A stretch of 64,000 bases of DNA. Source: Candidatus Pacebacteria bacterium CG2_30_36_39. Its GTDB lineage: Bacteria > Patescibacteriota > Microgenomatia > UBA1400 > PJMF01. The position numbers were made by a program, and so were the translations under genes. Location: positions 14,030-78,029 of the forward strand of contig MNZB01000004.1 in assembly GCA_001873435.1 (NCBI GenBank). The letters run 5' to 3'. The first letter of the stretch is position 1, and each line of letters starts with the position of its first letter. This document shows positions 6,507 to 63,946 of the stretch, in pieces. Under the pieces are notes generated by a model, which worked only from the letters and a program-made list of their open reading frames with translations, was not told the origin of the DNA and did no database searches.

Positions 6507-7778
6507 TTAATGCTTTAAAGCTTCTCTTTGTTCAATGCTGTGAAAAATTAAGATCACCAAAATCAAAGGAAAAAATGCCATTAAAGCAGTTTTATGTGAA
6601 CCAAAATTATCCAAAGCAAAACCAATAGCTGGAAACAATACAATAGAAATAATATTGCGCACAAGACTCTCCAAAGAACCAAGAGTAGCACGCATATTCT
6701 TTTGATAAAAATATTGTTTGAATGGACTCATGATTGGAGAAATTAATGAACTAAATGAGAAATAAACTACAAAAAATATTAAACCAGCAATAGGACCAGA
6801 AACAACAAATAAAGATGTTAAAACTAATAATCTAGCAACCATCATGATTTCCAAATATTTTTTTTCTGAAGAAAATTTCTTACTAAAATATTTAGGTACC
6901 AAACTAAAAACTGCCCCCATCAAAGAACCCAAGGCAACCATAATAGGTAAATTTCTTACATCCAATTTAAGATCCAATAAAAATGATTGATAAACTACAT
7001 CTGAAAAAAATAGGTTTACCACTTCACTAAAAATACCAACAAATAATAATTTTTTAACAACTGGATGAGAACTTGTATATTTAATTGCTTGTTTAGAAAT
7101 TTTAACTGTATCAGCAAAATTCTTTTTTAAAGAAAAAGTAACTTTTCTGGTTTTTTCTTTCAAACCAGAAAGAATCATGGCACCAACAAAATAACCCACA
7201 CAACCAGTTAACCACAAAAAATCTAAACCCTGGTGACTCTGACCAAAAACAAAATATTGAGTAGTAGCACCAACTAAGTACAAAAAGATAATTGCATTTA
7301 AATTTGAAAAAGCAGTAGCAAATTGATAAACAAACTCAAAGGTTGAATAAAACTTATTAATCAAATCTTCTCTTTTAGCTTTTTTGGCAATGTCGTAAGG
7401 TAAAGACTCAAAAGCTCCAGAACTAAATGTATAAGCAATTCCCTTTAAACTAAAAAGAAACCACATCATCCAAGGCTCAGTAATAAAGAAAAATAAGCCA
7501 AAAATTAAAGACTGCATCAACCAACTAACTTGAACAGATTTTCTTTTGCCATATAAATCTGCAAAAACTCCAGTTGGAATTTCTGCGATTAATAAAAATA
7601 ATGATTGCAAAGACAAACCAATACCAACCTGAGTTGCTGAAAAACCTTTGGCAAAAAAGAAGGCCATAATAACCATATCAATATCTGGAATAGAAACACC
7701 TGTTCCTAAACCTAAATAAATAGGGTTAAAAAGCTGCCATTCTTTTTGCTTAAAATAATTTTTTAGCTTCTTAAACAT
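6507..7778 (-). CDS. MFS-type transporter (host-like composition), last gene of the atypical operon
   Basis: About 12 hydrophobic segments. MFS loop motif GVFADLYGKRKS (GxxxDrxGrR-like). Only a 7-nt gap to the upstream gene. Confidence 0.65.
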   Translation of the reverse strand: MFKKLKNYFKQKEWQLFNPIYLGLGTGVSIPDIDMVIMAFFFAKGFSATQVGIGLSLQSLFLLIAEIPTGVFADLYGKRKSVQVSWLMQSLIFGLFFFITEPWMMWFLFSLKGIAYTFSSGAFESLPYDIAKKAKREDLINKFYSTFEFVYQFATAFSNLNAIIFLYLVGATTQYFVFGQSHQGLDFLWLTGCVGYFVGAMILSGLKEKTRKVTFSLKKNFADTVKISKQAIKYTSSHPVVKKLLFVGIFSEVVNLFFSDVVYQSFLLDLKLDVRNLPIMVALGSLMGAVFSLVPKYFSKKFSSEKKYLEIMMVARLLVLTSLFVVSGPIAGLIFFVVYFSFSSLISPIMSPFKQYFYQKNMRATLGSLESLVRNIISIVLFPAIGFALDNFGSHKTALMAFFPLILVILIFHSIEQREALKH

Positions 7779-7785
7779 AAGATTC

Positions 7786-8226
7786 TTATCTTACACAAAT
7801 TCGAGCAAAATGAATAATCATTTCCATTTCTTCAGTAAGCTCTAAGCCTTCTCTAGTTTTAACAGCAAATCTATCATCTTCGGCAACAATTGAAATAATT
7901 TCTAAAGTAGCAGTAGTGAAAAACTCACAACCAACTCCATTTACTAAGTATTCCAAAATATCCCAAAGTCTAATATTTCTCTTATCCCATTCCAAATCTT
8001 GGCCAGCCAAAAAATCTTCCTCTGCTAAAGCTAAAACATCTCTAGCTCCTTCACTTAATTGACCTGATTTGTTTTTTAACTGATAAATAATCAGCATGGC
8101 TGCAGCGCAACTAGCGGTATCAGTTGTGAGCATATGACCACATACATGATAAAGCAAATCGCAGTTACATTCCTCTGCTTGTTCTTCTGTTTCTAGAAGA
8201 TGTTTTGGTTTTTTTTCGTCAGACAT
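7786..8226 (-). CDS. hypothetical acidic Cys/His-containing protein
   Basis: 146 aa, acidic. EECNCDLLYHVCGHM could be a metal-binding cluster. Same strand and tight spacing with the operon genes. Confidence 0.4.
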   Translation of the reverse strand: MSDEKKPKHLLETEEQAEECNCDLLYHVCGHMLTTDTASCAAAMLIIYQLKNKSGQLSEGARDVLALAEEDFLAGQDLEWDKRNIRLWDILEYLVNGVGCEFFTTATLEIISIVAEDDRFAVKTREGLELTEEMEMIIHFARICVR

Positions 8227-8237
8227 AATATCCTTTA

Positions 8238-10151
8238 TTATTCTTTTTCTTGCTCATTAATAAAAAGTGCTACAGCACAGCTATCAGAATCAGCCGCTAA
8301 AGCCTGGGCACATAATTTTTCTAGTTCATTTAATTGAGAAGTTTGAATTCCTTCGTTTAATTCTTCGTCAGTAACATAAGTTGGAAAACTCATTGGTTCA
8401 GTTAGCATGAATCTTTCAGTATGAGTACTTTCGATTGGTTGAAAAATTTCTTCTGGACTTTGCAAATCTTTAAGCATTGCCTGCAAAATCTGCATCGGAC
8501 CTTCATGAGTAGAAACAACAACCTTCATTGATCTACCAGTCTCCTGATAAAACTGATTAACTGTTTCTAGTAAATCAATCATAAAAGACAAAGCTTTGAG
8601 ATGTACAAATGAGAAATTTTCACCACCAGCTATGGCATTAGAAAATGAATGCAAAACTTCTTCACCATATTCACTAGCTTTGTGTCCAACTCCAACTCCG
8701 AATGAACGCTCATTTAAACGCCAATCTCTAACAATAGCTGAAACTGGGAACGGCTCACCAATTGACCATAAAGCAACATCAATAGTTGCTAACGAAGAAG
8801 TTCTACCTGATGAAATTACTAAATCTGGAGCAGTAGTATCCCAAAGCTGAGTAGCAATATCATATGAACGTTGAGCACTTCTCTTGGCAATAGTGTCGTC
8901 AAGAATTCCATCGTTGGTATTAATTACACCAGGAAGTTTGCCAGCTCTTTGAGGAGTACTGTCGCCATTGCGAACTAAAAGCAAGTCCAAACCTGCTCCA
9001 TAATTCCAATTAGCTAATAATTCTTGATAACGAGTTCTAAGTTCATCAATACTTGGAATTAGTTCAAGAATTTCTGCTTTTTCTGGATTACTAGCAGTAA
9101 CAAAACTTGGTTCAGAAACTAATCTACCCAACTTACTAGGATCTCTTTGATTAACCCTATCTTTAACATATCCAGCTTGAGTTTCTTCATCCGCATTTTG
9201 AGCAGAAACAGAAACATCCTGAGTTAAACGATTGGTTTCCCAAAGTTTGAGAGCTCTTTTTTGATCTTCAGTTGGTTGATAATCTGGTTTTTCAACTGTA
9301 TGAGCACTCATAATACTTTCTACTTCGATACCATTTGGAAAAGAAAGTACACCAGTAGCATTAATAATAGGAGTAACCTCAGTTTGAAAATATCTAGTAC
9401 CATATTCTTGTGCCCAATAAAGCAAACCTGAAGTAAAAATTAAACGAGTGCCTGGTTTTAATTTGGCATCTTTATAAACTTCATGTTCAAGTAAAACTTT
9501 CTCTAGATCTTCACGCCAATTACGAGCTAATTTTTCGATTTCAGCTGGAAATGATTCCACACGACGAGCATCACCTGCTACATCATCAGCTTTAATACCT
9601 TCTATTTGAGCATTGAGTTGAGCACCATTAAAATCATCCCAGCCATCTATTTCAACCCACATGGGACTCATACCAGCAACTGGACCACTACCCCATACTT
9701 TGCCAGCTGGAGAAACATCTCTATTAGAAATGTCTTGATAAACTCCGGCGTGAGTGATTTTTATTCCACCATCTTCGGTAACTACAGCCATAATAGCTGT
9801 TTCACCTTCAATAGCGTATTTAACACCATGCAAAAGCTCTAAGTCGTTAAGATCTAGTCTTCCTTTTGAATTTGGTACTAATGACCAATCTGGAGGAAGT
9901 GGATCTTCATAATAGGTACCATCTGGAAGAGTTGTAGGAGCTGAATTCCATTTCAAAGTAAAAACATGATCTGGAGTCCATTCACTAAGAGGCATGACTT
10001 CTTTGATCTCGCCATCTTTTGCCACTGCAGCTACTAAGCCTTTTTGTCGCAACTCTGCTTCAAAAGCTCTTTTTTCTTCTTTGTTTGTCCAATCTACTCT
10101 TTCGAGAGAAAGATCAAATTCTTGACGTAATCTACTTATTTTTTCTGCCAT
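8238..10151 (-). CDS. hypothetical two-domain protein; C-terminal phosphoglycerate-mutase-like (histidine phosphatase superfamily) domain with RHG to RNG substitution
   Basis: C-terminal region aligns block by block with dPGM: LLLVRNGDSTPQ vs LVLVRHGESQWN, SSGRTSSLAT vs TSVLKRAIHT, PVSAIVRDWRLNERSFGVGVGHKASEYGEEV vs [33 protein letters not shown], and VVVSTHEG vs IIAAHGNS. The N-terminal 380 aa are unassigned. Confidence 0.55.
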   Translation of the reverse strand: MAEKISRLRQEFDLSLERVDWTNKEEKRAFEAELRQKGLVAAVAKDGEIKEVMPLSEWTPDHVFTLKWNSAPTTLPDGTYYEDPLPPDWSLVPNSKGRLDLNDLELLHGVKYAIEGETAIMAVVTEDGGIKITHAGVYQDISNRDVSPAGKVWGSGPVAGMSPMWVEIDGWDDFNGAQLNAQIEGIKADDVAGDARRVESFPAEIEKLARNWREDLEKVLLEHEVYKDAKLKPGTRLIFTSGLLYWAQEYGTRYFQTEVTPIINATGVLSFPNGIEVESIMSAHTVEKPDYQPTEDQKRALKLWETNRLTQDVSVSAQNADEETQAGYVKDRVNQRDPSKLGRLVSEPSFVTASNPEKAEILELIPSIDELRTRYQELLANWNYGAGLDLLLVRNGDSTPQRAGKLPGVINTNDGILDDTIAKRSAQRSYDIATQLWDTTAPDLVISSGRTSSLATIDVALWSIGEPFPVSAIVRDWRLNERSFGVGVGHKASEYGEEVLHSFSNAIAGGENFSFVHLKALSFMIDLLETVNQFYQETGRSMKVVVSTHEGPMQILQAMLKDLQSPEEIFQPIESTHTERFMLTEPMSFPTYVTDEELNEGIQTSQLNELEKLCAQALAADSDSCAVALFINEQEKE

Positions 10152-10152
10152 A

Positions 10153-11139
10153 TTATTTGCCCAATTTTTCAGCGTTTAAATTTGTAAAGTAGGTAAAATA
10201 ATCACCATCCAAAGGAGCATTGGTAGGAACAAAAGTTTCCTCAGTTCTAGCCACAGTCTTTCCAGGAATAACTGTCTCAACAACTTTATTTTCAGCTAAC
10301 TTCATTACACTTCTGGCAGTGAAACTTGGCATAATAGCTGGATCGATTGATCTAGCACCATCATCTTCAAGTAAAATTTGACCTGTTGATAATAAAAATG
10401 GCTTGCCTTCAACAATTCCTAGTTTGGCTAATTTTTCTGGAGAATAATTACCAACCCATTTGCCTAAGCGTTCACCCCAAAGCTTTAAAGAATTAACTTG
10501 AGCATTTGGAGTATGTAAAGCAACTTCACCTGTTTGGTCATAAACCCAATATTCCATTTCGATTTCGGCAATTTCTGACCAATCATTTACTTGAACCCAA
10601 GTAGTAGATAAACCAGAAGATCCTCCATTTTCAATACCACTAGTCCATGTTTTATATGTTCTGCCGGTATCATCTAAACGAGGAGTTCTATCACCAAAAT
10701 CAACCAAGGTACCAATATATAAAGGCTTCATTACTCCATTTTCTAGAACACCAACCACAGCTGCCTCAGCCTCTAAAACGTATTGTTTTTGACCCTCAAT
10801 CATACAAAGAGCTTCTGTTGAAGCAGTATCGTGAGCTTTTGGCAAAGGCTCGATATGAGGATTTGGTTTTGAAGTAGCAATATTAAAATGCATTAAATAT
10901 CCATGCTCTGGCAAAAATTCACCTCGAGTTTGATATTGCAAAGAATCATCACTACCTACCACCAAAACTATATCTAATGGCTTAAGCAACTCTTCTAATC
11001 TGCGATGTAAATCTGGTCTAGAAAATAGTTGAGTAGCTTTTAAATGAGATAAATCAATTTCTTTGGAAATTAAATCTATTCCAGATAATTTTTCATCTTT
11101 TTCTAGAAATTCTAAATCGATAATGATTGTTTCTTTCAT
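10153..11139 (-). CDS. hypothetical protein (acidic, Trp-rich)
   Basis: 328-aa ORF with a 1-nt gap to the downstream gene, in the operon. No recognisable motif. Confidence 0.45.
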   Translation of the reverse strand: MKETIIIDLEFLEKDEKLSGIDLISKEIDLSHLKATQLFSRPDLHRRLEELLKPLDIVLVVGSDDSLQYQTRGEFLPEHGYLMHFNIATSKPNPHIEPLPKAHDTASTEALCMIEGQKQYVLEAEAAVVGVLENGVMKPLYIGTLVDFGDRTPRLDDTGRTYKTWTSGIENGGSSGLSTTWVQVNDWSEIAEIEMEYWVYDQTGEVALHTPNAQVNSLKLWGERLGKWVGNYSPEKLAKLGIVEGKPFLLSTGQILLEDDGARSIDPAIMPSFTARSVMKLAENKVVETVIPGKTVARTEETFVPTNAPLDGDYFTYFTNLNAEKLGK

Positions 11140-11163
11140 ATAATCGTTCCTTTTAAGAATTCT

Positions 11164-12795
11164 TTAATGAGTTCCTGAGGCGACTCTTTGAGCGTGAACA
11201 GCCATTGTGTCGCTAGAATTTTGTAATGAACCAACTACGTTTACGTACTCTGGCAATCTCATTCCATCTCTGTGTCTATCAACATCGTGGAGAGTACCAA
11301 TAATACGACCACCTGGTTTAACTAACCTACTGGCTTCCTCAAAAATCTTACAAACTTGATGTCCACCTTCACAACAATCAGCAGCTGATGTTTGAACAAC
11401 TACCATGTCATAAAGTGGTTCTTCATAAAATTCACCAATTGGAATATTACCCAAGTCTTCAACGTTGCGGAAACGAACGTTCATAGCACGCATACCATTT
11501 AGAGCCTGCATGATGAAAGCTTGCTTACCTCTACCATGACTCATGATGTCAATACGACGAAGTGGATTTTTACCATCCTTGGCATTAGCAGCAGATAAAA
11601 TATTTGCTTCTTTATGACAACCAATGAATAAAACTCTTTGACGAGGATTTTCTCTTAGTTCGGCTAGAGCTTCAGCAATATTAGAGTCAGGAGTATGATC
11701 TTGTTTTCTCCATTCCTCATACTTTTCTTGGAAGAGAGATTCTACTTTATTCCAATCTAAAGATAGAACTTCAGCAGTATCTCTAATTCCTAAGGCACCT
11801 AAAACAAAAGCTTTTAATGGATAAAAGGTATTGTGACCAGCATCAGTCACTAAACTATAATCTCCAACCCAACTATTTACTTTAGCTTGAGCTGCAATTA
11901 CTGATCCCTCTCCAACATACATAGTTCTATAAAGAACTTTGGCTTCTTTAGCTACCCAAGCCCAATCACCAATAGTGACACCTGGGAAACTAGTATATTG
12001 ACGGACACGAGCAAGTTGAGAAGGTAGATCGGCTGGATGTTCTTGAGTAATAAAGTAGGCTTTTTGACCAACCCAAGCATTATCACCAATTTTTAAAGTT
12101 TCACCACCTTGTACGTTAAAGGCACCGCCAATACGAGCATAGCGACCAATAGAAACTCTAGGAATAGCACTCATTGGACCCATTGAAGAATCCATTTCTG
12201 GATGAGCAGAAGTGTTGTAACCAGAACTCTGAAAATGAGTAGGAAGAATAGCTTCAAAACCACGGCCAACATCAGTTGGAAGCATTTGTGAGCCACCTCT
12301 TAGCATATCAAAACTTAATGGATTGCCACTTGGACTAATTGTTTTTCCAGATTCTTCCAAAGGATGGACATGTAAAATAGGACCAGTAGTATCAATATAA
12401 AAATGTTCTTCTGGTAAGTTAAAAGCTGCTCTGAGTTCTCCGAGTTTTTCTTTCCAAAGAGCTGCCATGGCAATTTCATCGGTAAAGGTTTTAGCTTTGC
12501 TACCAATTTTCTTTAAATCAGCACAGATCATGGCCCAAGCATAGGCTGGGGTCATGTCACCCAAATGCAAAGCACCTTGAACAAACATTGCTACTTCAGC
12601 ATCAAATGGACGAGTGTATTCTGCCGGTTGATGCTCTTCAAAAACTACTGGTCTAGTAAGACCAAGTTCTTGAGCTAATTTCATTTGGTTGGAGGGATCA
12701 CGGTCGATAATTTGACCCGCAGGATTAATAGCCAGGACTTCACCTTGGCCTAATCGTCTATGAACTTCTTCTGTGTGTTCTGCCTTTTTTGCCAT
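11164..12795 (-). CDS. hypothetical multi-domain protein: N-terminal unknown domain, central left-handed beta-helix (hexapeptide-repeat) region, C-terminal class-I methyltransferase-like fold
   Basis: Hexapeptide-like periodicity in SIGRYARIGGAFNVQGGETLKIGDNAWVG...VTIGDWAWVAKEAKV...VGEGSVIAAQAKVN. The C-terminus has VLFIGCHKEA (degenerate motif I), YDMVVVQTSAAD (motif II-like) and LVKPGGRIIG (motif III). Start taken at ATG 12795 (MAKKAEH); the track starts at an upstream TTG. Confidence 0.5.
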   Translation of the reverse strand: MAKKAEHTEEVHRRLGQGEVLAINPAGQIIDRDPSNQMKLAQELGLTRPVVFEEHQPAEYTRPFDAEVAMFVQGALHLGDMTPAYAWAMICADLKKIGSKAKTFTDEIAMAALWKEKLGELRAAFNLPEEHFYIDTTGPILHVHPLEESGKTISPSGNPLSFDMLRGGSQMLPTDVGRGFEAILPTHFQSSGYNTSAHPEMDSSMGPMSAIPRVSIGRYARIGGAFNVQGGETLKIGDNAWVGQKAYFITQEHPADLPSQLARVRQYTSFPGVTIGDWAWVAKEAKVLYRTMYVGEGSVIAAQAKVNSWVGDYSLVTDAGHNTFYPLKAFVLGALGIRDTAEVLSLDWNKVESLFQEKYEEWRKQDHTPDSNIAEALAELRENPRQRVLFIGCHKEANILSAANAKDGKNPLRRIDIMSHGRGKQAFIMQALNGMRAMNVRFRNVEDLGNIPIGEFYEEPLYDMVVVQTSAADCCEGGHQVCKIFEEASRLVKPGGRIIGTLHDVDRHRDGMRLPEYVNVVGSLQNSSDTMAVHAQRVASGTH

Positions 12796-12853: not shown

Positions 12854-12898
12854 ATTATAGTCCTTTCATAATGAATTGTCAATACTTTATATAGGATA
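12854..12898 (-). promoter_or_regulatory. near-consensus sigma70 promoter (TTGACA-17-TATAAT) with upstream TATCCTATA element; drives the 11164..6507 operon
   Basis: Minus strand reads TATCCTATATAAAGTATTGACAattcattatgaaaggacTATAATcc. The -35 is at 12877..12882, the -10 at 12854..12859 and TATCCTATA at 12890..12898. Confidence 0.55.
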
Positions 12899-14349: not shown

Positions 14350-14351
14350 AA

Positions 14352-14503: not shown

Positions 14504-14538
14504 AAAAATTATATCAGACTAATATTTATTTGCACAGC

Positions 14539-36552: not shown

Positions 36553-36605
36553 GAGATGTATAATTATACACATAAAAATCAATAGCGCCAGACTAAAAAT
36601 AGATA

Positions 36606-45583: not shown

Positions 45584-46414
45584 TTACGGAGCAACAACGT
45601 TGCTGGCAACCAAGGTCCATCCCGTCGCGTTTGTATGGCGAAGAATGGTCCAGGCGCCGTTGTTCACATCGAAGAAAACGACGTAAACAACTTTGCAACC
45701 CTGAAGTCCGCAGTTGTACAAGTGGCTGTTCGCCGCTTGCTGATAGATGTACGGCTGATCCATGAAGCCGCCAGCATTCTCTTTGACCTGATATTGCGTC
45801 ACCGTGGTTGCGCCAGGGTGATATCTGGAGAAGTTAACATCCAGATTCAGGTCTCCGGGTCCAGAATTGCGACCGCGGAGATAGATTTGCCATTCCACAT
45901 CCGGCTGGGGATTGGCGACAATCGAGTAGTTGCCAAACTTCATGACAACTCCAGCAGTAGTAGTCAGCTGGTAACCGCCTTCGTGAACGAATTTGGTTGC
46001 GGTGGCATTTTCCAACGACTCTTGCGAGTCAGGAGAAATGAGAGCCGCACTCGGATTGGCTTTGCGTTCGGCTTCGGTTTCGACGCCGACGACGCCGGGT
46101 TTGCCGCAGAAATCTTTACCGCCGGGAAGTGTGCAGACGTTTTCGTTGAAAACGCCATCTGCCCAACGATAAGCGGTGACCTTATAAGGGGCACCTTTGA
46201 TTTCGTAGCTCGGAGGTTGGATCTTGGCATTGCTTTGAGAAGGGCTGTCGTTTGATGGACCGCCTTGACCGGTGGAAACCGATTGAGTCGGGGCTACCGC
46301 AGTCACAGCAGGCTGTTCGCCGCCAGACATGTGGAAGTTACCGATATCAATGTTCCAGGGAGCGCAAGCGCTCAAAAGCACGGTCAACAACACTAGGGTT
46401 AGGGTCTTTTTCAT
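45584..46414 (-). CDS. lipoprotein, compositionally atypical (high GC, E. coli-like codon usage), function unknown
   Basis: MKKTLTLVLLTVLLSAC lipobox. RBS AAGGAG. GC-rich codons (CTG, GCG, CCG). A plus-strand shadow ORF overlaps it. Confidence 0.6.
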   Translation of the reverse strand: MKKTLTLVLLTVLLSACAPWNIDIGNFHMSGGEQPAVTAVAPTQSVSTGQGGPSNDSPSQSNAKIQPPSYEIKGAPYKVTAYRWADGVFNENVCTLPGGKDFCGKPGVVGVETEAERKANPSAALISPDSQESLENATATKFVHEGGYQLTTTAGVVMKFGNYSIVANPQPDVEWQIYLRGRNSGPGDLNLDVNFSRYHPGATTVTQYQVKENAGGFMDQPYIYQQAANSHLYNCGLQGCKVVYVVFFDVNNGAWTILRHTNATGWTLVASNVVAP

Positions 46415-46772
46415 CTTTCGTTACTCCTTGAGAGGTTTGATAGCAGTTTCGCCGCTCTAGTCCACGCTGGACTAGAGTCAGTTCACGCAATTAAAAACCA
46501 TATAAAAAGTTTCTAATTGCGCGAACCGATGGCTCAACTTCAAACTTCAAAAGAAGTAAAATTTCTCACTTGTTAAAGAGCGACTGAATTAACAGTCACC
46601 GTTGCTAAAAAGTATTTCGCTTAGAACATTCGTAGTGAATGAGTAGCGAGCAAGCTCTTCAGCCAAAAATCTTTTTATAAAAAACAAGACTTTTGGCTAA
46701 AGATCTGAAAGCAAAAAATTATTTTAATTAACTAATACTCTTGGTATATATATGTTTTTTTACACCAGGCTT

Positions 46773-46813
46773 AAGTATAGCACTAAAAGACCATTTTGTC
46801 AATGTTATAGGAT
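46773..46813 (-). promoter_or_regulatory. sigma70 promoter TTGACA-17-TATACT with upstream TATCCTATA element (drives 45584..46414 through a ~350-nt structured leader)
   Basis: Minus strand TATCCTATAACATTGACAaaatggtcttttagtgcTATACTtaagcctgg. Confidence 0.55.
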
Positions 46814-46845
46814 ATATTTTGGCTTATTTTATAATTAAAAGTTTC

Positions 46846-46875
46846 AGATCCCTGCCCATGTAAATGGACAGGGAT
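46846..46875 (-). terminator. hairpin GATCCCTG-N14-CAGGGATC downstream of 46892..47320
   Basis: 8-bp stem 17 nt after the stop. On the minus strand it is followed by TGAAACTTTT. Confidence 0.4.
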
Positions 46876-46891
46876 CTTGGCCAATTACGGC

Positions 46892-47320
46892 CTATGGAGT
46901 TGGTGTTGGGGTTGGAGTAAGAGTAAACACCGGCGTGAGCGTCGGTGGTGGTGTGGGTGTCCAAGACTGAGCAGTTGCAGTTTTTGCTGCCACCGCTATT
47001 GCCTTGTTCTCTGCCTCGATCTTTTTATCGATCTCGGAGATATCACCTTCAACCTTTTCGAGTTGAGCCTTTCCTTCTTCGATTTTTGCTTCGATCTCAA
47101 CTTTGCTGTCAAGCAAAATCAATTTCTGACAAATCAGAGGAAGTTCATCCTCTGGCATACTGGTGATTGAACCGAATTCATTTTCTCGGCCAATCACTTT
47201 TAATGCATCGTAGCAGGAGGCTGCCGCTTTTTCCTTTTCAGTTGCGAAAAGGCCGGAGCAGCTGCTCAACACAAAAATCCCTACTACTGCCAACAACAGG
47301 AAGATGTGAATCTTCTTCAT
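46892..47320 (-). CDS. small lipoprotein with coiled-coil segment and C-terminal Thr/Pro repeat tail, compositionally atypical (higher GC)
   Basis: MKKIHIFLLLAVVGIFVLSSC lipobox. A/E/K-rich heptad-like stretch. C-terminal TPTPPPTLTPVFTLTPTPTPTP. RBS GGAG. Confidence 0.6.
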   Translation of the reverse strand: MKKIHIFLLLAVVGIFVLSSCSGLFATEKEKAAASCYDALKVIGRENEFGSITSMPEDELPLICQKLILLDSKVEIEAKIEEGKAQLEKVEGDISEIDKKIEAENKAIAVAAKTATAQSWTPTPPPTLTPVFTLTPTPTPTP

Positions 47321-47403
47321 TGTTGCTCCGTCACTCCATGAGATTTAGATCCGTCACAGCGCAAGCGCTGTAACGATCCCCCTTCTAGAGAAGTGACCTG
47401 GTA

Positions 47404-47444
47404 AGTATAACAAAATAGATCAAAATAGTCAATGTTATAGGATA
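47404..47444 (-). promoter_or_regulatory. sigma70 promoter TTGACT-17-TATACT with upstream TATCCTATA element (drives 46892..47320)
   Basis: Minus strand TATCCTATAACATTGACTattttgatctattttgtTATACTtaccagg. The leader contains the palindrome ACAGCGC-AA-GCGCTGT. Confidence 0.55.
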
Positions 47445-50886: not shown

Positions 50887-51103
50887 AAAAACTAGAGGAG
50901 TTTCCTCTAGACAGACGCGAAGAGCGATCGGGGACCGACAGGCTGATTTATTGCATTACTGCGAGTCATAATATTAATAAGTTTGTCCGATATATTCGAT
51001 AATTCTGTTTGCGTTTTTTCCATTTAGACTTAAATTTTTTCAAACTCAAGTCACTTCGCAAGTTACTGGCTGAGATTATATGCCCTCTTGGCACTTTAGT
51101 CAA
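50887..51103 (-). ncRNA. candidate ~180-nt sRNA or terminator-attenuated rny leader: consensus promoter (TTGACT-17-TATAAT) followed by intrinsic terminator
   Basis: Minus strand TTGACTaaagtgccaagagggcaTATAAT (-35 at 51098..51103, -10 at 51075..51080). About 180 nt downstream lies CTAGAGGA-aac-TCCTCTAG followed by TTTTTCC (50887..50910), 90 nt before the rny start. Confidence 0.35.
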
Positions 51104-51176
51104 TGAAAAACATTTTCAATAACTTAAAGTATAGGACTATATATCAATCCTTTTGGCACTTTTACACCTAATTTGG

Positions 51177-52435: not shown

Positions 52436-52509
52436 CGGAGAGTGGCGCAGATGGCTAGCGCGCGCGCATGGGGTGCGCGAGGTCGCAGGTTCGAGTCCTG
52501 TCTCTCCGA
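52436..52509 (+). tRNA. tRNA-Pro (anticodon GGG), C1:G72 acceptor, no encoded CCA
   Basis: CGGAGAG-TG-GCGC-AGATGGCTA-GCGC-G-CGCGC-ATGGGGT-GCGCG-AGGTC-GCAGG-TTCGAGT-CCTGT-CTCTCCG-A. Cloverleaf is consistent. Anticodon loop AUGGGGU. Confidence 0.85.
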
Positions 52510-54143
52510 CAATCAGAAAAAAAGCCCTTTTTCTCAAAAGTAGCGAATGGTTCTTCTAATTGATACTTCGCTACTTTTTTGTTATTCACACGTAGGTTCG
52601 AGAAGATTTTTTCAATCAAATAATTTTTTCTACTTAGAGATTTGGTTTTGACGATCTCATCGGGCAATTTCTTAACTTGTTCGGTGAATTTAGAAAATGT
52701 CAAAATACTTGATTTGTTATTCTCAATCTGTTTTTCAATCTCAATTAATGCTGATTCAAATTCTTTGAGCTTTTTTCTATTTTCTTTCAGCTCTGATTCA
52801 TAATCTTCTCGTAGCTCTCGATCAGATATATCAAGTAGATACTTTTTGATTTTGATATTTTGCTGATTTAGACCAGCTTTTTGCGTAACAATTGATTTTT
52901 GTTCTACCCTGAGTAAAGCTAACCTATCTTTTTGAACCCTTTTAGACTCCTCTACATAATGCTCATATACCTCTTTTGTGGCAATGTTGGTATTTTTAAG
53001 AAAATCAACAACAAAATCTACTAAAACTCTAGCTCTAACGTGGTGTTGAACTTTTTTACCTGAGATATTTTTAAAAGAACATTTTTTGTTGTCACATCTA
53101 AAATAAAACTTGTTACCTTTGCTTGGTGAAGTGATTGAAACATACATTGTTTCACCACAATGATCACAAATAACTCGACCATTAAGTAGTCTACCCTTAA
53201 CATTCTTTTTCACTCTCTTGTCATATCTCCTCAAGAATGATTCTCTGTTTTTCTTAGTAATATTATTGATCTTGAAAAAGTGAGCAGGGCTAACTACTGG
53301 CACGAAATCAAATATCTCCATCAAATTAATAACCTTATCGCCATATCGCATTACCCCTGCATAAATTGGATCTGAAAACATTTCACTCAGACGTTTTTGA
53401 TCAAATGAATAGGGTTTTCTTTGATTTATCTTATTCGTTACTGGCTTAGTAAAATTATGTGTGTTGAGATACTCCTCAATTTCTCTATATATAGCCCCCT
53501 CAAACCTCATTTTCCAAGCTTCCCTGATCAAGACATAGTTATCACCATCGGGCTGTAATCGGTGCATATCGTCTTTAAAATAACCGTGTTTTGGTACTGT
53601 TAGCCAACCACCCTCTTCGGCTCTCTTATGAAGCCCTCTTTTTACATCTTTACTCAGAGCATCTGAATATTGTTTTGATAAAACAAAAGTAATGCCCAAC
53701 ATCACCTTGCCTGATTCATTATTTTCAAAGGAAAAAGAGGGAAATTTTAGATCCTTGATAATTCCTTTATCAAGCAGATCAATAATTTCACCTGCTTCTT
53801 TCATATTTCGAGCTAAACGATTTGGATGCCAAGCTAAAATACCTTGATACTTACCAGCCTTTACATCTTCAATCATTTTTCTAAACTTAGGACGAATATC
53901 AGGGTCTTTAGCACTCTCTTTTTCCTGAATATATGGCTCTATAACAATGAGCTTCTCTTTTCGAGCAAAGTTAAGGCACTCATCAATCTGGTCTGGAAGT
54001 GATTTCTCTTGTTTATCTTTGTCTTTTGTTGATCTTCGAGCATACAAAACATACTTGTATGATTTTGGATCATCTTCAACAATGGTATCTGCTTTTAAAT
54101 TTTTGAAGTATTCAAAAAAATCTTTTTGAGTAATATCAACCAT
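52455..54143 (-). CDS. large serine recombinase (resolvase/invertase catalytic domain + recombinase domain + zinc ribbon + coiled coil)
   Basis: N-terminal YARRSTKDKDKQEKSLPDQ (catalytic Ser), zinc ribbon CDHCGETMYVS...FRCDNKKC, 562 aa. The 3' 55 nt overlap the tRNA-Pro on the opposite strand. Confidence 0.85.
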   Translation of the reverse strand: MVDITQKDFFEYFKNLKADTIVEDDPKSYKYVLYARRSTKDKDKQEKSLPDQIDECLNFARKEKLIVIEPYIQEKESAKDPDIRPKFRKMIEDVKAGKYQGILAWHPNRLARNMKEAGEIIDLLDKGIIKDLKFPSFSFENNESGKVMLGITFVLSKQYSDALSKDVKRGLHKRAEEGGWLTVPKHGYFKDDMHRLQPDGDNYVLIREAWKMRFEGAIYREIEEYLNTHNFTKPVTNKINQRKPYSFDQKRLSEMFSDPIYAGVMRYGDKVINLMEIFDFVPVVSPAHFFKINNITKKNRESFLRRYDKRVKKNVKGRLLNGRVICDHCGETMYVSITSPSKGNKFYFRCDNKKCSFKNISGKKVQHHVRARVLVDFVVDFLKNTNIATKEVYEHYVEESKRVQKDRLALLRVEQKSIVTQKAGLNQQNIKIKKYLLDISDRELREDYESELKENRKKLKEFESALIEIEKQIENNKSSILTFSKFTEQVKKLPDEIVKTKSLSRKNYLIEKIFSNLRVNNKKVAKYQLEEPFATFEKKGFFSDCRRDRTRTCDLAHPMRAR

Positions 54144-54160
54144 ATCATCATTTTAAACCT

Positions 54161-54640
54161 TTAAGATGGTGGTGTAAGAGTGTAACCCATATTATCTAGT
54201 ATTCTTTGATACGCACCTAGTAAGTTATTAATTGTTTTTGGATCATTTTTAACACTCTCTATTGCTTGATTTTCGGCTTCTTTGATCTCATCTCGACTGA
54301 ACTCTTCCTTTGTTGCTCTGCTGTTTGTTGCAACCCATTGAATGAACTTGATCTGATCTCTGGTAAGTCCAGAGCCACCTGCTTGTTTGGTTTTAATCAA
54401 TTCTAATTCGTTGCTAACAATCTCGGCTACTACTATTGACAGGTGGTTTTGGGCTACCTCAATTCTTTCCGCAAATTCTGAATTTTCAGATTGCAAATCA
54501 TAGATGGTTGACTTTGGTATTTGGGCTTTAAGACAGGCTTTATTGATACTCAAACCAGCCTTTAAGTATGGTTCTAGTTTTCGGAAGAGTGTATCAACTT
54601 GTTTATCACTTAGGGCTGGTCTGCCTATATTTTGACTCAT
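54161..54640 (-). CDS. HTH DNA-binding protein resembling phage terminase small subunit N-terminus (tentative)
   Basis: GRPALSDKQVDTLFRKLEPYLKAGLSINKACLKAQIPKSTIYDL follows the GRP...e.i...G.s...c...gis..T pattern of TerS-type HTH domains. Confidence 0.4.
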   Translation of the reverse strand: MSQNIGRPALSDKQVDTLFRKLEPYLKAGLSINKACLKAQIPKSTIYDLQSENSEFAERIEVAQNHLSIVVAEIVSNELELIKTKQAGGSGLTRDQIKFIQWVATNSRATKEEFSRDEIKEAENQAIESVKNDPKTINNLLGAYQRILDNMGYTLTPPS

Positions 54641-54707
54641 ACTTTAATTATAAAAGAAATAAATCAGATTTTTCTGTTTTTGATGTGTTTATAATGCGTT
54701 ATAAAGA

Positions 54708-54740
54708 ATGCAAAAAGGGCTAATGTTTAATTAGCCCTTT
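54708..54740 (-). terminator. intrinsic terminator AAAGGGCTAAT-gttta-ATTAGCCCTTT plus U-run, after the Ltp gene
   Basis: Perfect 11-bp stem followed by TTTTTGCATTC on the minus strand. Confidence 0.6.
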
Positions 54741-54767
54741 AGTATTCGATTAAACAGATTGGTGATG

Positions 54768-55316
54768 TTATAAACCTACAGCATCAGCTCCATAACTGGC
54801 TTGTTCTGTTGTAAAGCCTTCAAACTCTAATTGATTTATTAAGCTTTCTCTTGAATAACCAGAAATATCTAGGTACGACTTAGCCTTTTTTGAGGCTTGT
54901 TCATTCCAATCAGCCCCAACTGCATCAACTGCATAAGTAGCATCTTCTGTAGAGAACTTTTCAAACTCTAGTTGTTTTATTAAGCCACTTCTTGAATAGC
55001 CTGAAATACTCAAATATGACTTTGCTTTTCTAACAGCATTTTTTTGAGATACAGTTTCGGAAGCATTACTATCTTCCGATTTGGTTGTGTCACTTTCTTC
55101 AATGACTTCTGTATTAGGTGATATGGTATTAGATTGGCTAGTTGGTGTATCACTACCACCAGAACTAGCTCCAATTACAATAAAGAGAAGGATAATTCCT
55201 AGAATACCAGTTAATATCGGGTGACGTTGTGCCCAATTACCCTGCTTTTCTTGACAATACGGACATTTTTTTGCTTTGTTATCGATTTCTTTTTGACAGC
55301 TACGACATTTTTTCAT
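54768..55316 (-). CDS. Ltp-family (host cell surface-exposed lipoprotein) superinfection-exclusion-like protein with N-terminal zinc ribbon and TM anchor
   Basis: CRSCQKEIDNKAKKCPYCQ ribbon, TM helix, Ser/Thr-rich linker, then two copies of AKSYL.ISGYSR.GLI.QLEFE.F..E.A.Y..DAVG (the Ltp repeat known from TP-J34-like prophages). Confidence 0.7.
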   Translation of the reverse strand: MKKCRSCQKEIDNKAKKCPYCQEKQGNWAQRHPILTGILGIILLFIVIGASSGGSDTPTSQSNTISPNTEVIEESDTTKSEDSNASETVSQKNAVRKAKSYLSISGYSRSGLIKQLEFEKFSTEDATYAVDAVGADWNEQASKKAKSYLDISGYSRESLINQLEFEGFTTEQASYGADAVGL

Positions 55317-55358
55317 AGGGTAACCCTTTCGTTGTTCTAATCTTGTGGTTAATTATAT

Positions 55359-55405
55359 AGCAAATTGGGTGTTTACAACATAACTAATCCAATGTCTACA
55401 ACGTG
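55359..55405. promoter_or_regulatory. operator-like repeat cluster between divergent Ltp and XRE genes
   Basis: GTGTTTACAACATAACTAATCCAATGTCTACAACGTGGTGTAAACAT: imperfect inverted repeat (GTGTTTACA / TGTAAACAt) and direct repeat TACAAC. Confidence 0.35.
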
Positions 55406-55438
55406 GTGTAAACATAGGAATGGCACAACAATTAGAAT

Positions 55439-55711
55439 GTGTCATCTGCTAAATATAAACCATCATTGTCTAAACCTGAACAAGATAAATTAAGAAAACA
55501 ATTTACTCGAAAATTAGCAATTCATCTCAGGTCTGTTAGAGAGGAAAAAGGTCTTACTCAGGAAGACTTGGCTTTTAAAGCTGGAATCAACACAGCTTAT
55601 TACAGCCATTTAGAGCGTGGTGTTTATAGTCCAACTATGTTTGTAATTTGGAAAATAGCAGAAGCTCTTAAAATTGATTTAGAAAATTTTATGAAAGGTT
55701 TTGACTATTAA
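55439..55711 (+). CDS. XRE-family (Cro/CI-type) HTH transcriptional regulator
   Basis: LRSVREEKGLTQEDLAFKAGINTAYYSHLERG is the canonical HTH_XRE. Confidence 0.8.
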   Translation: MSSAKYKPSLSKPEQDKLRKQFTRKLAIHLRSVREEKGLTQEDLAFKAGINTAYYSHLERGVYSPTMFVIWKIAEALKIDLENFMKGFDY

Positions 55712-57928: not shown

Positions 57929-57970
57929 TATCCTATAACTATTGATTAATTACATATTTTGTTATACAAT
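57929..57970 (+). promoter_or_regulatory. sigma70-like promoter TTGATT-17-TACAAT with upstream TATCCTATA element; ~195-nt leader to the GC-rich small membrane protein gene
   Basis: Plus strand TATCCTATAACTATTGATTaattacatattttgttaTACAAT. Fourth occurrence of the TATCCTATA-N3..7-(-35) arrangement. Confidence 0.5.
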
Positions 57971-58170
57971 GATAGATTCTGCAAAATAAATAAAGTTGTG
58001 TTATCGCAACACTTATTTTTGTTTAGTCTGCAGTAAGTTCTTTAAAAAAACTTGTTGTAATTATTCTTTGGCGATCAGCACTCAAGATATCTATTTTGGT
58101 ATTTTGAGCGCTGTTCACCAAGAATGGCCATCTTACCCATTCCGGGTGAGACGTAGATTTGGAGGAAGTT

Positions 58171-58380
58171 ATGAACTTCGCAATCCTATTCTTTGGCGGG
58201 TTATTGCTGATTGTGGTGGGCTTTGTGCTCATCTTGATCAACATGGCTAAAGCCAGAAAACGCGAGTCAACCGGTAAAACTATCGGCGGACACTGCGGCG
58301 GCATGGCAATTATGTTCGTAGGAATTGTCGTTACCCTCTCGGGAACGATTGGTTGGCTCATCGCCAACTTTCCTTTCTAA
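58171..58380 (+). CDS. 69-aa two-TM small membrane protein, compositionally atypical (higher GC)
   Basis: MNFAILFFGGLLLIVVGFVLILINMAKARKRESTGKTIGGHCGGMAIMFVGIVVTLSGTIGWLIANFPF. RBS GGAGG 5 nt upstream of the ATG. The track start is an upstream TTG. Confidence 0.55.
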   Translation: MNFAILFFGGLLLIVVGFVLILINMAKARKRESTGKTIGGHCGGMAIMFVGIVVTLSGTIGWLIANFPF

Positions 58381-58403
58381 CGAATTGCTCAACAAGTTAT
58401 TCA

Positions 58404-58436
58404 AAGCGCCGGGTTCTGCCTGGCGCTTTTTTTATT
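58404..58436 (+). terminator. canonical intrinsic terminator AAGCGCCgGG-ttctg-CCtGGCGCTT plus T8
   Basis: GC-rich stem followed by TTTTTTTATTT, 24 nt after the stop of the small membrane protein gene. Confidence 0.6.
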
Positions 58437-58514
58437 TCAACAATCAGAGATATAATGTAAGTATTAACAATAATCATAGCTTTTTTTGATATAGCTTGAT
58501 ATAATATAGGACAT

Positions 58515-63616: not shown

Positions 63617-63946
63617 CTACTTTTTGTACCAGTTGTTCACCAGGGTGATTTTGTCCACATGATTCACATCAGTGGTGGCAAATTTCTCCGTGCCATAGAA
63701 AAAGTTCGTGGTGCCTTGAACAACCGACACACAAGTGGAATCTCCACCAGTGTTATCGTTTGTACAGGACCACTCGCCATTTCCGAGGTTCGTCAGCGTC
63801 GCCACGGCGGTGCCGTTGGTGAGCTGGATGCTACTGTTGACAGCAACATCAATGGGAGTGGGAGCAATTGGAGTCGCTGGCGCGCAAGCGGCCAACAACA
63901 AGAGAAAGAGCGAAATGACCAGAATGGTCGGGAAAGGGTGCCTCAT
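63617..63946 (-). CDS. small lipoprotein, compositionally atypical (high GC)
   Basis: MRHPFPTILVISLFLLLLAAC lipobox. RBS AGGAG 6 nt upstream. GC-rich codons. Confidence 0.55.
   Translation of the reverse strand: MRHPFPTILVISLFLLLLAACAPATPIAPTPIDVAVNSSIQLTNGTAVATLTNLGNGEWSCTNDNTGGDSTCVSVVQGTTNFFYGTEKFATTDVNHVDKITLVNNWYKK

What the first reader, a model, noticed from the sequence alone, without database searches (positions are those of the whole stretch)
46773..47444. Recurrent promoter architecture TATCCTATA-N3..7-TTGAC(A/T)-N17-TAtAcT marks a set of compositionally foreign transcription units
The 9-mer TATCCTATA sits 3 to 7 nt upstream of a near-consensus -35 at four places: 12890..12898 (minus), 46805..46813 (minus), 47436..47444 (minus) and 57929..57937 (plus). 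The two copies here share the 17-mer TATCCTATAACATTGAC and an identical -10 context TATACTTA, but their 17-nt spacers are unrelated. That argues for selection on promoter elements rather than duplication of one DNA segment. Every instance drives genes whose GC content and codon usage differ from the AT-rich host: the 5-gene acidic-protein operon, two lipoprotein genes and a small membrane protein gene. This looks like a dedicated regulon, for example one controlled by an activator or alternative factor binding TATCCTATA, or a set of promoters brought in by one vehicle. The exact 9-mer TATCCTATA appears in the window only in these four contexts; TATAGGACT at ~51140 is a near-match.
Basis: seen in the sequence. 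Interest (0 to 1): 0.8.

Follow-up and report, generated by a model that had tools for sequence, protein, structure and literature searches.

The report
Conserved upstream promoter element in Patescibacteria
The repeated TATCCTATA next to four strong promoters is real and is the local form of a directional promoter element (core CCTATA, then purine and pyrimidine) that abuts the -35 box of near-consensus promoters in many Microgenomates-type candidate-phyla-radiation bacteria; I found no description of it, and it marks neither foreign genes nor a mobile cassette.

Summary
TATCCTATA occurs 4 times (0.61 expected). Each copy lies 3-7 nt 5' of TTGACA, TTGACT or TTGATT, followed by a 17-nt spacer and a -10 box; the composite occurs 4 times against 0.03 expected.

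It is not a duplicated segment. In orthologous promoters of related species only the element, the -35 and the -10 are conserved, for both the 5-gene operon and the 276-aa lipoprotein gene.

About 80% come from Patescibacteria, mainly Microgenomates, WWE3 and Saccharibacteria. These hits share a signature absent from the Firmicutes and viral hits: purine at +1, pyrimidine at +2, and a gap to the -35 peaking at 2-4 nt. About one third sit exactly where a leaderless gene's promoter should be.

The window organism is a Candidatus Pacebacteria MAG. The 'foreign genes' reading fails. The operon is not a GC3 outlier, the lipoprotein is syntenic with its promoter in a relative, and there is almost no GC3 excess across other loci.

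Best reading: a lineage-wide UP-like promoter element read by RNA polymerase or a general associated factor. The main rival is a conserved sequence-specific regulator. The reader protein is unknown.

The parts
12890..12898 (-). Upstream element, site 1 (TATCCTATA), 7 nt 5' of the -35
   Evidence: The core TCCTATA is invariant in the orthologous promoters of L013 and L014.
12854..12882 (-). Core promoter of site 1: TTGACA (12882-12877), 17 nt, TATAAT (12859-12854); a 12/12 match to the consensus
   Evidence: Both hexamers are invariant in the orthologs.
6507..12795 (-). Five-gene operon driven by site 1: 543-, 328-, 637- and 146-aa proteins without a Pfam family, plus an MFS transporter. GC3 is 0.17-0.22, which is typical of the genome.
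   Evidence: The same five genes occur in relatives.
46806..46814 (-). Upstream element, site 2 (TATCCTATA), 3 nt (ACA) 5' of the -35
   Evidence: The exact 19-mer ATATCCTATAACATTGACA is conserved before the ortholog in L262.
46774..46802 (-). Core promoter of site 2: TTGACA, 17 nt, TATACT
45584..46414 (-). 276-aa lipoprotein gene (GC3 0.58) behind a leader of about 350 nt. The leader contains a 22-bp hairpin at 46481-46527.
   Evidence: A syntenic ortholog is present in L262.
47436..47444 (-). Upstream element, site 3 (TATCCTATA), 3 nt (ACA) 5' of the -35, directly after the stop codon of the SBP gene
47404..47432 (-). Core promoter of site 3: TTGACT, 17 nt, TATACT
46892..47320 (-). 142-aa lipoprotein gene (GC3 0.46) driven by site 3, with a leader of about 80 nt
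57929..57937 (+). Upstream element, site 4 (TATCCTATA), 4 nt (ACTA) 5' of the -35
57942..57970 (+). Core promoter of site 4: TTGATT (57942-57947), 17 nt, TACAAT (57965-57970)
58171..58380 (+). 69-aa membrane protein gene (GC3 0.61) driven by site 4, behind a leader of about 200 nt and followed by a strong terminator at 58403-58429
63617..63946 (-). Third GC-rich lipoprotein gene (109 aa, GC3 0.64). Its promoter lies just outside the window and carries a one-mismatch element: TATCCCATA-gt-TTGACT-17-TATTAT, at about L258 9786-9825 (core CCCATA starts at 9791).
   Evidence: This was an out-of-window test of the pattern.

Best explanation
TATCCTATA is this genome's form of a directional promoter-proximal element of about 11 bp. 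The consensus is TATCCTATA-R-Y, with an invariant core CCTATA; the first base of the core's 5' flank varies (T, C or G). In Microgenomates-type Patescibacteria the element lies 1-5 bp (mode 3) upstream of the -35 hexamer of near-consensus sigma-70 promoters, so it is centred near -43.

It is part of the promoter, not of a mobile segment, and it defines a global class of strong promoters. In this Candidatus Pacebacteria genome there are about 6 such promoters in 84 kb. They drive mostly small lipoprotein, sortase-type surface and membrane protein genes, plus one conserved operon.

Inferred mechanism: the element occupies the position of the proximal UP-element subsite. It is read through a flexible contact, either by RNA polymerase itself (alpha C-terminal domain) or by a general polymerase-associated DNA-binding factor conserved in the lineage. 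This adds binding energy and raises promoter occupancy.

What is shown: the element is real, directional, constrained in position, conserved in orthologous promoters and strongly enriched in this lineage.
For: Non-random composite:
- 4 sites against 0.03 expected.
- 3 of the 4 strict matches to TTGAC(A/T)-17-TATA(A/C)T in the window carry the 9-mer.

Phylogenetic footprints at two loci:
- In the operon promoters of the window, L013 and L014, only TCCTATA, TTGACA and CTATAAT are invariant.
- In the lipoprotein promoter of L262 the 19-mer ATATCCTATAACATTGACA is identical at 54% protein identity, while the spacer and leader have diverged.

Out-of-window test:
- Two more sites lie just outside the window. 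TATCCCATA-gt-TTGACT precedes a third GC-rich lipoprotein gene, and TCCCTATA-acta-TTGACA precedes a 106-aa secreted protein gene.

Lineage-wide occurrence:
Uniform chance predicts about 15 for all 596 Gb.
- 47 stretches are labelled Patescibacteria: Curtiss-, Levy-, Shapiro-, Woese-, Gottesman-, Collier- and Roizmanbacteria, Microgenomatus, WWE3, CPR3 and Saccharibacteria.
- 43 more are TPA MAGs whose proteins are 55-80% identical to those of the labelled CPR loci.

Signature specific to these hits:
- +1 is a purine in 98 of 99 sites and +2 a pyrimidine in 94 of 99.
- The gap distribution for 1 to 7 nt is 15, 19, 29, 23, 9, 3 and 1.
- The Firmicutes hits and the roughly 12 distinct viral hits lack this signature.

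Unbiased coupling:
- In the CPR loci, 6 of 9 strong promoters that were not the search seeds also carry (C/T)CCTATAG 1-4 nt before the -35, and further examples turn up.
- Orientation is forward in 107 cases against 2 reverse. This count is dominated by the seeds, which are forward by construction.

These are real promoters:
- At 35 of 99 sites an ORF of at least 50 aa starts 6-15 nt after the -10, the geometry of a leaderless gene.

Breadth:
- The downstream genes are diverse: surface proteins, DEAD-box helicases, an epimerase, a glycosyltransferase and orphan genes. They are enriched for an N-terminal hydrophobic segment (47% against 27%).
- This breadth, the density of about 7 sites per 100 kb, and the fact that the -35 and -10 are already consensus make a dedicated activator unnecessary.

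Sigma factor:
- rpoD in the window has a canonical region 4.2 and no C-terminal extension, so the -35 is read normally and the extra contact must come from elsewhere.
Against: - No protein was identified, and there are no binding or transcription data.
- The element contains an invariant CC and carries a lot of information, unlike the A/T-tract UP elements that alpha-CTD reads in model bacteria.
- The tRNA promoters and other presumably strong promoters in the window lack the element.
- In one sub-lineage a second copy abuts the -10 inside the spacer, or a single copy abuts a -10 with no -35 at all. Alpha-CTD could not reach these positions, which suits a separate DNA-binding protein, possibly a repressor.
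- In L262 the element is half of a perfect 18-bp palindrome, which hints at a dimeric regulator.
- The relabelling of the TPA 'Gammaproteobacteria' MAGs as CPR rests on protein similarity only.
Confidence: 0.45

Rival explanations
1. The element is the binding site of a conserved sequence-specific transcription factor of Microgenomates-type Patescibacteria. This would be either an activator that touches sigma region 4 or alpha, or more likely a repressor that holds very strong consensus promoters in check. The element-bearing promoters would then form a large regulon of envelope proteins and a DEAD-box helicase.
For: - The site is asymmetric, about 11 bp long and high in information.
- The downstream genes are enriched for secreted and membrane proteins (44 of 93 against 27% of control ORFs), and a DEAD-box helicase recurs in 9 genomes.
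- Second copies abut the -10 inside the spacer of the promoter of a leaderless surface-protein gene in 8 genomes, and single copies abut a -10 without any -35. This is classic operator geometry.
- L262 carries the palindrome TTATAGGATATCCTATAA.
- The tRNA promoters lack the element.
- Candidate regulators are encoded close by: an OmpR-type response regulator with its kinase (L260) and a Crp/Fnr-family protein (L258). This shows proximity only.
Against: - No cognate factor has been identified.
- The core promoters are already consensus, so an activator is not needed.
- Most non-seed consensus promoters in the CPR loci carry the element (6 of 9). It is odd for one regulon to own nearly all consensus promoters.
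- The targets are mostly lineage-specific orphan genes rather than a conserved core regulon.
- The gap to the -35 varies from 1 to 5 nt, which is loose for a rigid protein-protein contact.
Confidence: 0.37
2. The four promoters are copies of one promoter cassette spread by duplication or brought in with foreign genes by a mobile element or phage.
For: - Sites 2 and 3 share a 17-mer and the -10 context TATACTTA.
- Three of the four downstream genes are strong GC3 outliers.
- The operon has different neighbours in relatives: copper-resistance genes there, metK here.
Against: - Similarity stops at the element and the two hexamers; the spacers and flanks are unrelated.
- The lipoprotein gene and its promoter are syntenic in a relative and as diverged as the neighbouring genes.
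- The operon is not a compositional outlier.
- The exact 17-mer gives only 2 viral hits, which look like chance. The 20 viral hits to the full pattern lack the R-Y signature.
- The element precedes housekeeping genes in many classes.
- The strain-variable integrative element in the window (52436-55711) carries none of the four sites.
Confidence: 0.03
3. The element is itself a start signal. Either TATARY acts as the -10 of an overlapping upstream promoter, or ...CCTATA|R acts as a promoter for a phage-type single-subunit RNA polymerase, which would resemble the CTATAG of T7 and SP6 promoters.
For: - TATA-R-Y resembles TATAAT or TATAGT.
- A purine follows TATA in 98 of 99 sites, as a transcription start would require.
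- The resemblance to T7/SP6 promoters is recalled from memory and was not tested.
Against: - The last position is C in 27% of sites, which is incompatible with the near-invariant -7 T of -10 boxes.
- The 15 nt before the element show no conserved bases, and this stretch includes the 3' half of where a -35 box would lie.
- The conserved TATCC would fall in a spacer.
- No single-subunit polymerase gene was seen in the window.
- Leaderless ORF starts align with the downstream -10, not with the element.
Confidence: 0.04
4. The recurrence is a chance feature of AT-rich intergenic DNA.
For: The 9-mer is 78% A+T, and intergenic DNA in this genome is AT-rich.
Against: - 4 sites against 0.03 expected for the composite.
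- The element is conserved in orthologous promoters.
- The pattern passed an out-of-window test.
- There are over a hundred independent instances in related lineages, all with a shared flanking signature.
Confidence: 0.01

Closest known systems
[quoted passage not shown]
   Same: It lies immediately upstream of the -35 and is centred near -43. It accompanies the strongest promoters, is directional, tolerates small shifts in position as a flexibly tethered reader would, and is not itself transcribed.
   Different: The sequence is not an A/T tract. It has an invariant CC and much higher information content. It is absent from the tRNA promoters in the window. In some relatives it also abuts the -10.
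Binding sites of class I and class II regulators next to the -35: MarA/SoxS marboxes, PhoB boxes, CRP/FNR at -41.5, and the Spx-alpha-CTD '-44 element' of Bacillus
   Same: A specific short sequence lies directly 5' of or overlapping the -35. Marboxes are likewise asymmetric and orientation-dependent. Spx gives a precedent for a factor-alpha-CTD complex reading a motif near -44.
   Different: Activator-dependent promoters normally have a poor -35, whereas here it is consensus. No cognate factor is known, the motif matches none of these consensus sequences, and the set of targets is very broad.
Extended -10 (TGn) and the Gram-positive -16 region (TRTG)
   Same: It is a short extension 5' of a core hexamer. 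In one sub-lineage TCCTATAG sits flush against TATAAT or TATCAT, which places TATA where TRTG would be.
   Different: In the window, and in most instances elsewhere, the element flanks the -35 rather than the -10.
Lineage-specific promoter grammars, for example Bacteroidota -33 TTTG / -7 TAnnTTTG
   Same: The promoter architecture is characteristic of a deep bacterial lineage and is invisible to E. coli-based models.
   Different: Here the canonical hexamers are kept and an extra element is added. In Bacteroidota the hexamers themselves, and the sigma factor, have changed.

Membership tests
UP element (alpha-CTD site) | Located between about -38 and -60, directly upstream of the -35 hexamer | tested here: met
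   The gap to the -35 is 3, 3, 4 and 7 nt in the window. In 99 related sites it is 1-5 nt with a mode of 3. The element therefore spans about -47 to -39.
UP element (alpha-CTD site) | A/T-rich sequence with A- and T-tracts (proximal consensus AAAAAARNR) | tested here: not met
   The consensus TATCCTATA-R-Y has an invariant CC and no A-tract. The 15 nt further upstream are AT-rich but show no pattern.
UP element (alpha-CTD site) | Bound by alpha-CTD, and stimulates transcription without other factors | not testable with these tools
   No rpoA from a CPR genome was among the sequences fetched.
Regulon of a sequence-specific transcription factor | The motif is conserved upstream of orthologous genes in related genomes | tested here: met
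   Operon promoters, lipoprotein promoter, and DEAD-box helicase promoters in 9 genomes.
Regulon of a sequence-specific transcription factor | The targets form a functionally coherent set | tested here: inconclusive
   The targets are enriched for secreted and membrane proteins (47% against 27%, Fisher p=9e-5, not corrected for orthology). They also include helicases, sugar-modifying enzymes and cytosolic orphan proteins.
Regulon of a sequence-specific transcription factor | A cognate DNA-binding protein is identified | not tested
   Only nearby candidates were noted: an OmpR-type response regulator in L260, a Crp/Fnr-family protein in L258, and Xre- and ArsR-type HTH proteins in the window. 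Nothing links any of them to the motif.
Duplicated or mobile promoter cassette | Sequence similarity extends beyond the functional elements into the spacer and flanks | tested here: not met
   The spacers and flanks of sites 1-4 are unrelated. Among orthologs only the three elements are invariant.
Horizontally acquired ('foreign') transcription units | Composition deviates from that of the host genome | tested here: inconclusive
   This is met by the two lipoprotein genes and the small membrane protein gene (GC3 0.46-0.61 against a mean of 0.26). It is not met by the operon (0.17-0.22). Across 85 other loci the excess is only +0.04.
Horizontally acquired ('foreign') transcription units | Absent from the syntenic position in relatives, or much more similar to a donor than the flanking genes are | tested here: not met
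   The homolog of the 276-aa lipoprotein lies in the same recA-rny-secG-SBP context in L262. It is 54% identical, against 54-83% for its neighbours.

The most novel reading that the evidence does not exclude
Microgenomates-type Patescibacteria use a previously unrecognised additional core-promoter element (CCTATA-R-Y at about -43). Their RNA polymerase holoenzyme, or a lineage-specific polymerase subunit-like factor, reads it directly, giving a promoter grammar of element, -35 and -10. This grammar would specify the most strongly expressed genes of these ultra-small symbionts.
Probability: 0.3. Interest if true: 0.85.

Novelty: new variant of a known kind. Interest (0 to 1): 0.66.

Why it matters
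Almost nothing is known about how transcription starts in the candidate phyla radiation, and most of its members cannot be grown. A conserved, easily recognised promoter module has three uses:
- It gives a sequence-only way to find real promoters, transcription starts and leaderless genes, and probably the most highly expressed genes, in thousands of CPR metagenome-assembled genomes. Those genes are mainly small lipoproteins and surface proteins, which are prime candidates for host contact.
- It points to a testable new protein-DNA contact at about -43, made either by the polymerase or by a conserved global factor.
- It offers a ready-made strong promoter design for the few genetically tractable Patescibacteria.

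The work also corrects the idea that these promoters mark foreign DNA.

Tried and rejected
- Viral origin. The 17-mer gave 2 viral hits, one of them inside a gene. The 7-mer pattern saturated the viral scan with unrelated phage promoter families. The 9-mer pattern gave only 20 viral stretches, about 12 distinct, without the R-Y signature. This served only as a control.
- Known RNA families. None was found in the leaders of sites 2 and 3 or downstream of 'orphan' element promoters in 18 loci.
- Literature. Searches for the motif and for promoter studies in CPR or Patescibacteria found nothing describing it. A 2025 NAR survey of bacterial promoters that includes Nanosynbacter lyticus does not mention it.
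- Extra DNA contact by sigma region 4. rpoD is in the window, region 4.2 is canonical and there is no C-terminal extension. Rejected.
- Altered alpha-CTD. No CPR rpoA was among the sequences fetched. Not testable.
- Overlapping upstream -10 or a single-subunit polymerase promoter. Rejected on position-specific composition.
- DnaA box (TTATCCACA) and IHF consensus. Compared by eye. The base before TATCC is not conserved and the 3' halves do not match. Rejected by inference.
- The AGTCCTATA upstream of rny at 51130. It has the wrong spacing (27 nt), no purine at +1, and is not conserved in L262. Treated as chance.
- CCTATA-TTGA matches at 16611 (+) and 54623 (+). They lie inside genes and have no -10. 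Treated as chance. TGTCCTATA at 58505 (-) is the ribosome-binding-site region of a plus-strand gene.
- The 10 kb beyond the window start (L260). It contains no further site.
- The Firmicutes hits of the genome scan. They have palindromic TATAGG-N-CCTATA operators, a 6-nt gap and no R-Y signature, so they are a different system.
Full report
**1. Observation**

The 9-mer TATCCTATA occurs exactly four times in the 64-kb window: 12890-12898 (-), 46806-46814 (-), 47436-47444 (-) and 57929-57937 (+). Dinucleotide shuffles expect 0.61, and 0 of 100 reach 4.

One-mismatch variants are not enriched (12 against 17.8 expected), so the exact word is what recurs. Each copy is followed after 3-7 nt by TTGACA, TTGACT or TTGATT, then a 17-nt spacer and TATAAT, TATACT or TACAAT. 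The composite TATCCTATA-N1..7-TTGA occurs 4 times against 0.03 expected.

A consensus scan of the whole window finds only four strict matches to TTGAC(A/T)-17-TATA(A/C)T. Three of them are these sites, and the fourth is the rny promoter. All six TCCTATA 7-mers are intergenic, although about 90% of the window is coding. Sites 2 and 3 share the 17-mer and TATACTTA, and their spacers are unrelated.

**2. Organism and genes**

Proteins from the window are found on many Crystal Geyser groundwater contigs and in NCBI MAGs named Candidatus Pacebacteria, a member of the Microgenomates/OP11 group of Patescibacteria. The four sites drive the following genes.

| Site | Downstream gene(s) | Leader |
|---|---|---|
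| 1 | Five-gene operon: four proteins without a Pfam family and an MFS transporter | about 60 nt |
| 2 | 276-aa lipoprotein | about 350 nt |
| 3 | 142-aa lipoprotein | about 80 nt |
| 4 | 69-aa membrane protein | about 200 nt |

**3. Selection on the elements, not duplication**

The first operon protein has only about ten relatives in 5.8 billion clusters. In two related species (75-77% identity) the same five genes follow a promoter in which only three blocks are invariant: TCCTATA, TTGACA and CTATAAT. The gap between the element and the -35 is 1, 2 or 7 nt.

The 276-aa lipoprotein has a 54%-identical homolog in a relative whose genome has 43% G+C. It lies in the same gene order, recA-rny-secG-SBP-lipoprotein followed by a protein of about 1,100 aa. 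Its upstream region keeps the exact 19-mer ATATCCTATAACATTGACA, then an unrelated 17-nt spacer and TACAAT. The rest of the intergenic region has diverged.

**4. Test outside the window**

A third GC-rich lipoprotein gene (63617-63946, -) has its promoter beyond the window edge. On a contig that extends the window, the promoter reads TATCCCATA-gt-TTGACT-17-TATTAT. The same extension holds TCCCTATA-acta-TTGACA-17-TATCAT in front of a 106-aa secreted protein with a C-terminal anchor. The 10 kb at the other end of the window holds no site. That makes about six sites in 84 kb.

**5. Distribution**

I scanned one genome per species (596 Gb) with TATCCTATA-N1..7-TTGAC-N18-TATAMT. A uniform model predicts about 15 for the entire database.

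| Group | Stretches | Notes |
|---|---|---|
| Labelled Patescibacteria | 47 | Curtiss-, Levy-, Shapiro-, Woese-, Gottesman-, Collier- and Roizmanbacteria, Microgenomatus, WWE3, CPR3, Saccharibacteria |
| TPA assemblies labelled Gammaproteobacteria or Pseudomonadales | 43 | Their proteins are 55-80% identical to those of labelled CPR loci, so they are probably mislabelled |
| Firmicutes | 21 | A different system (see below) |

The CPR-like sites share features that the search did not require:
- The base after the 9-mer is a purine in 98 of 99 sites, and the next is a pyrimidine in 94 of 99.
- The gap to the -35 is unimodal. For gaps of 1 to 7 nt the counts are 15, 19, 29, 23, 9, 3 and 1.

The Firmicutes hits lack this signature and show palindromic TATAGG-N-CCTATA operators instead. 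The whole viral collection gives only 20 stretches, about 12 distinct, and these also lack the signature.

Within the CPR loci, 6 of 9 consensus promoters that were not the search seeds also carry (C/T)CCTATAG 1-4 nt before the -35. More sites of this kind were found, for example three in one WWE3 locus. The core is therefore CCTATA with a variable first base. No hit was labelled Parcubacteria, so the exact form may be confined to the Microgenomates/WWE3/Saccharibacteria side.

Caveat: the scan was cut off and the scanning order is unknown, so the enrichment is qualitative.

**6. Evidence that these are working promoters**

At 35 of 99 CPR-like sites an ORF of at least 50 aa begins 6-15 nt after the -10 and has no ribosome-binding site. 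This is the geometry of leaderless mRNAs.

Downstream genes include:
- a family of surface proteins of about 220 aa, with a signal peptide and a C-terminal sorting signal (13 genomes);
- DEAD-box helicases (9 genomes);
- 55-aa membrane proteins (4 genomes);
- small lipoproteins much like those in the window;
- an epimerase, a glycosyltransferase and many orphan genes.

47% have an N-terminal hydrophobic segment, against 27% of control ORFs.

**7. The 'foreign genes' idea**

In the window, GC3 averages 0.26 (sd 0.08). The two lipoprotein genes (0.58 and 0.46), the small membrane protein gene (0.61) and the third lipoprotein gene (0.64) are strong outliers. The operon genes (0.17-0.22) are not.

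The lipoprotein gene was inherited vertically: it is syntenic in a relative and has diverged as much as its neighbours. It is still GC-rich in both genomes, so its composition is a maintained property of the gene and not a mark of recent import. Over 85 other element-bearing loci the downstream gene exceeds the locus GC3 by only 0.04 (p=0.047). The element does not mark foreign DNA.

**8. Mechanism**

What is shown: a directional element of about 11 bp with constrained position, centred near -43, and coupled to consensus sigma-70 hexamers. The rpoD gene is in the window. Its region 4.2 is canonical and it has no C-terminal extension, so the extra contact must come from elsewhere.

The preferred reading is an UP-like element read through a flexible contact, either by alpha-CTD or by a general polymerase-associated factor. 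Four points favour it:
- the position;
- the 1-5-nt slack in spacing;
- the fact that the core promoter is already consensus;
- the breadth and density of the targets.

The main rival is a conserved sequence-specific regulator, perhaps a repressor. Five points favour that reading:
- the high information content and the invariant CC;
- the envelope bias of the targets;
- the absence of the element from the tRNA promoters;
- second copies flush against the -10 in one sub-lineage, with or without a -35;
- an 18-bp palindrome in L262.

I put the UP-like reading at about 0.45 and the regulator at about 0.37. That the element is a genuine, conserved, lineage-wide cis-element of promoters I hold at about 0.9.

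**9. Novelty**

Full-text searches for the motif and for CPR promoter studies found no description of it. It is best classed as a new variant of a known kind, namely an upstream promoter element or operator. It has practical value for annotating and engineering Patescibacteria.

Noticed in passing
window 52436-55711: A strain-variable integrative element lies next to tRNA-Pro (52436-52510). It carries a large serine recombinase (52455-54143, -, overlapping the 3' end of the tRNA), a 159-aa protein, an Ltp-family lipoprotein and an Xre-type HTH protein. Contigs L002, L004 and L005 of the same population lack it and join the ABC transporter gene directly to recA.
   Followed up: partly
window 45584-46414, 46892-47320, 58171-58380, 63617-63946 and 36606-37613: Small envelope-protein genes, and one 335-aa ORF, have GC3 of 0.46-0.64 in a genome whose mean GC3 is 0.26. 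For the 276-aa lipoprotein the excess persists in a syntenic ortholog at 54% identity, so something other than recent transfer maintains it. The cause is unknown.
   Followed up: partly
window 46481-46527 (-); L262 about 6115-6160: The leader of about 350 nt before the lipoprotein gene contains a perfect 22-bp hairpin (-30.9 kcal/mol, z = -10). The ortholog's leader has an equally stable hairpin (-27.1 kcal/mol) at the same place, with a different stem sequence and similar loop-proximal bases. This may be a conserved cis-regulatory RNA. It matches no Rfam family.
   Followed up: partly
window 57995-58010 (+) and 50892-50910 (-): Terminator-like hairpins followed by T-runs sit inside 5' leaders. 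One lies about 20 nt after the predicted start of site 4, and one lies in the rny leader of about 280 nt. They may be attenuators or short RNAs. The site-4 hairpin is only weakly stable.
   Followed up: partly
window 6507-12795 (-); L013, L014-L016, L017-L018: The five-gene operon consists of a 543-aa protein with a weak hexapeptide-repeat match, 328-, 637- and 146-aa proteins with no Pfam family, and an MFS transporter. It is found in only about ten protein clusters worldwide. In relatives it sits next to copper-resistance genes rather than metK. Its function is unknown.
   Followed up: partly
window 14381-14504 (-): A SAM-I/IV riboswitch lies upstream of metK (13234-14367).
   Followed up: no
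L140, L143, L151, L195, L233, L234, L246, L257: One lineage has a two-copy architecture. TCCTATAG sits flush against both the -35 and the -10 of the promoter of a leaderless surface-protein gene of about 220 aa (YGQYGQYG motif, C-terminal sorting signal). The same lineage also has TCCTATAG|TATCAT promoters with no -35.
   Followed up: partly
L179, L182, L210 (Clostridia); L164 (Elusimicrobia): The Firmicutes and Elusimicrobia hits to the same search pattern show palindromic TATAGG-N5..8-CCTATA operators, both upstream of the -35 and inside the spacer. In L182 the downstream protein is 473 aa long. This looks like a different, repressor-type system that happens to share the word.
   Followed up: no
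L140-L255 (43 loci, e.g. L183, L194, L229): Many 'MAG TPA_asm: uncultured Gammaproteobacteria/Pseudomonadales' records encode proteins 55-80% identical to those of Microgenomates and other Patescibacteria loci, and they share the promoter signature. Their NCBI taxonomic labels are probably wrong.
   Followed up: partly
L262 5776-5793: In the relative, the element before the lipoprotein gene is half of a perfect 18-bp palindrome, TTATAGGATATCCTATAA. The window sites have no such inverted copy.
   Followed up: no
window 35236-36654 (-): The rpoD gene encodes a sigma factor with a lysine-rich N-terminal tail of about 60 aa ([18 protein letters not shown]...) where E. coli has the acidic region 1.1. 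Region 4.2 is canonical.
   Followed up: no
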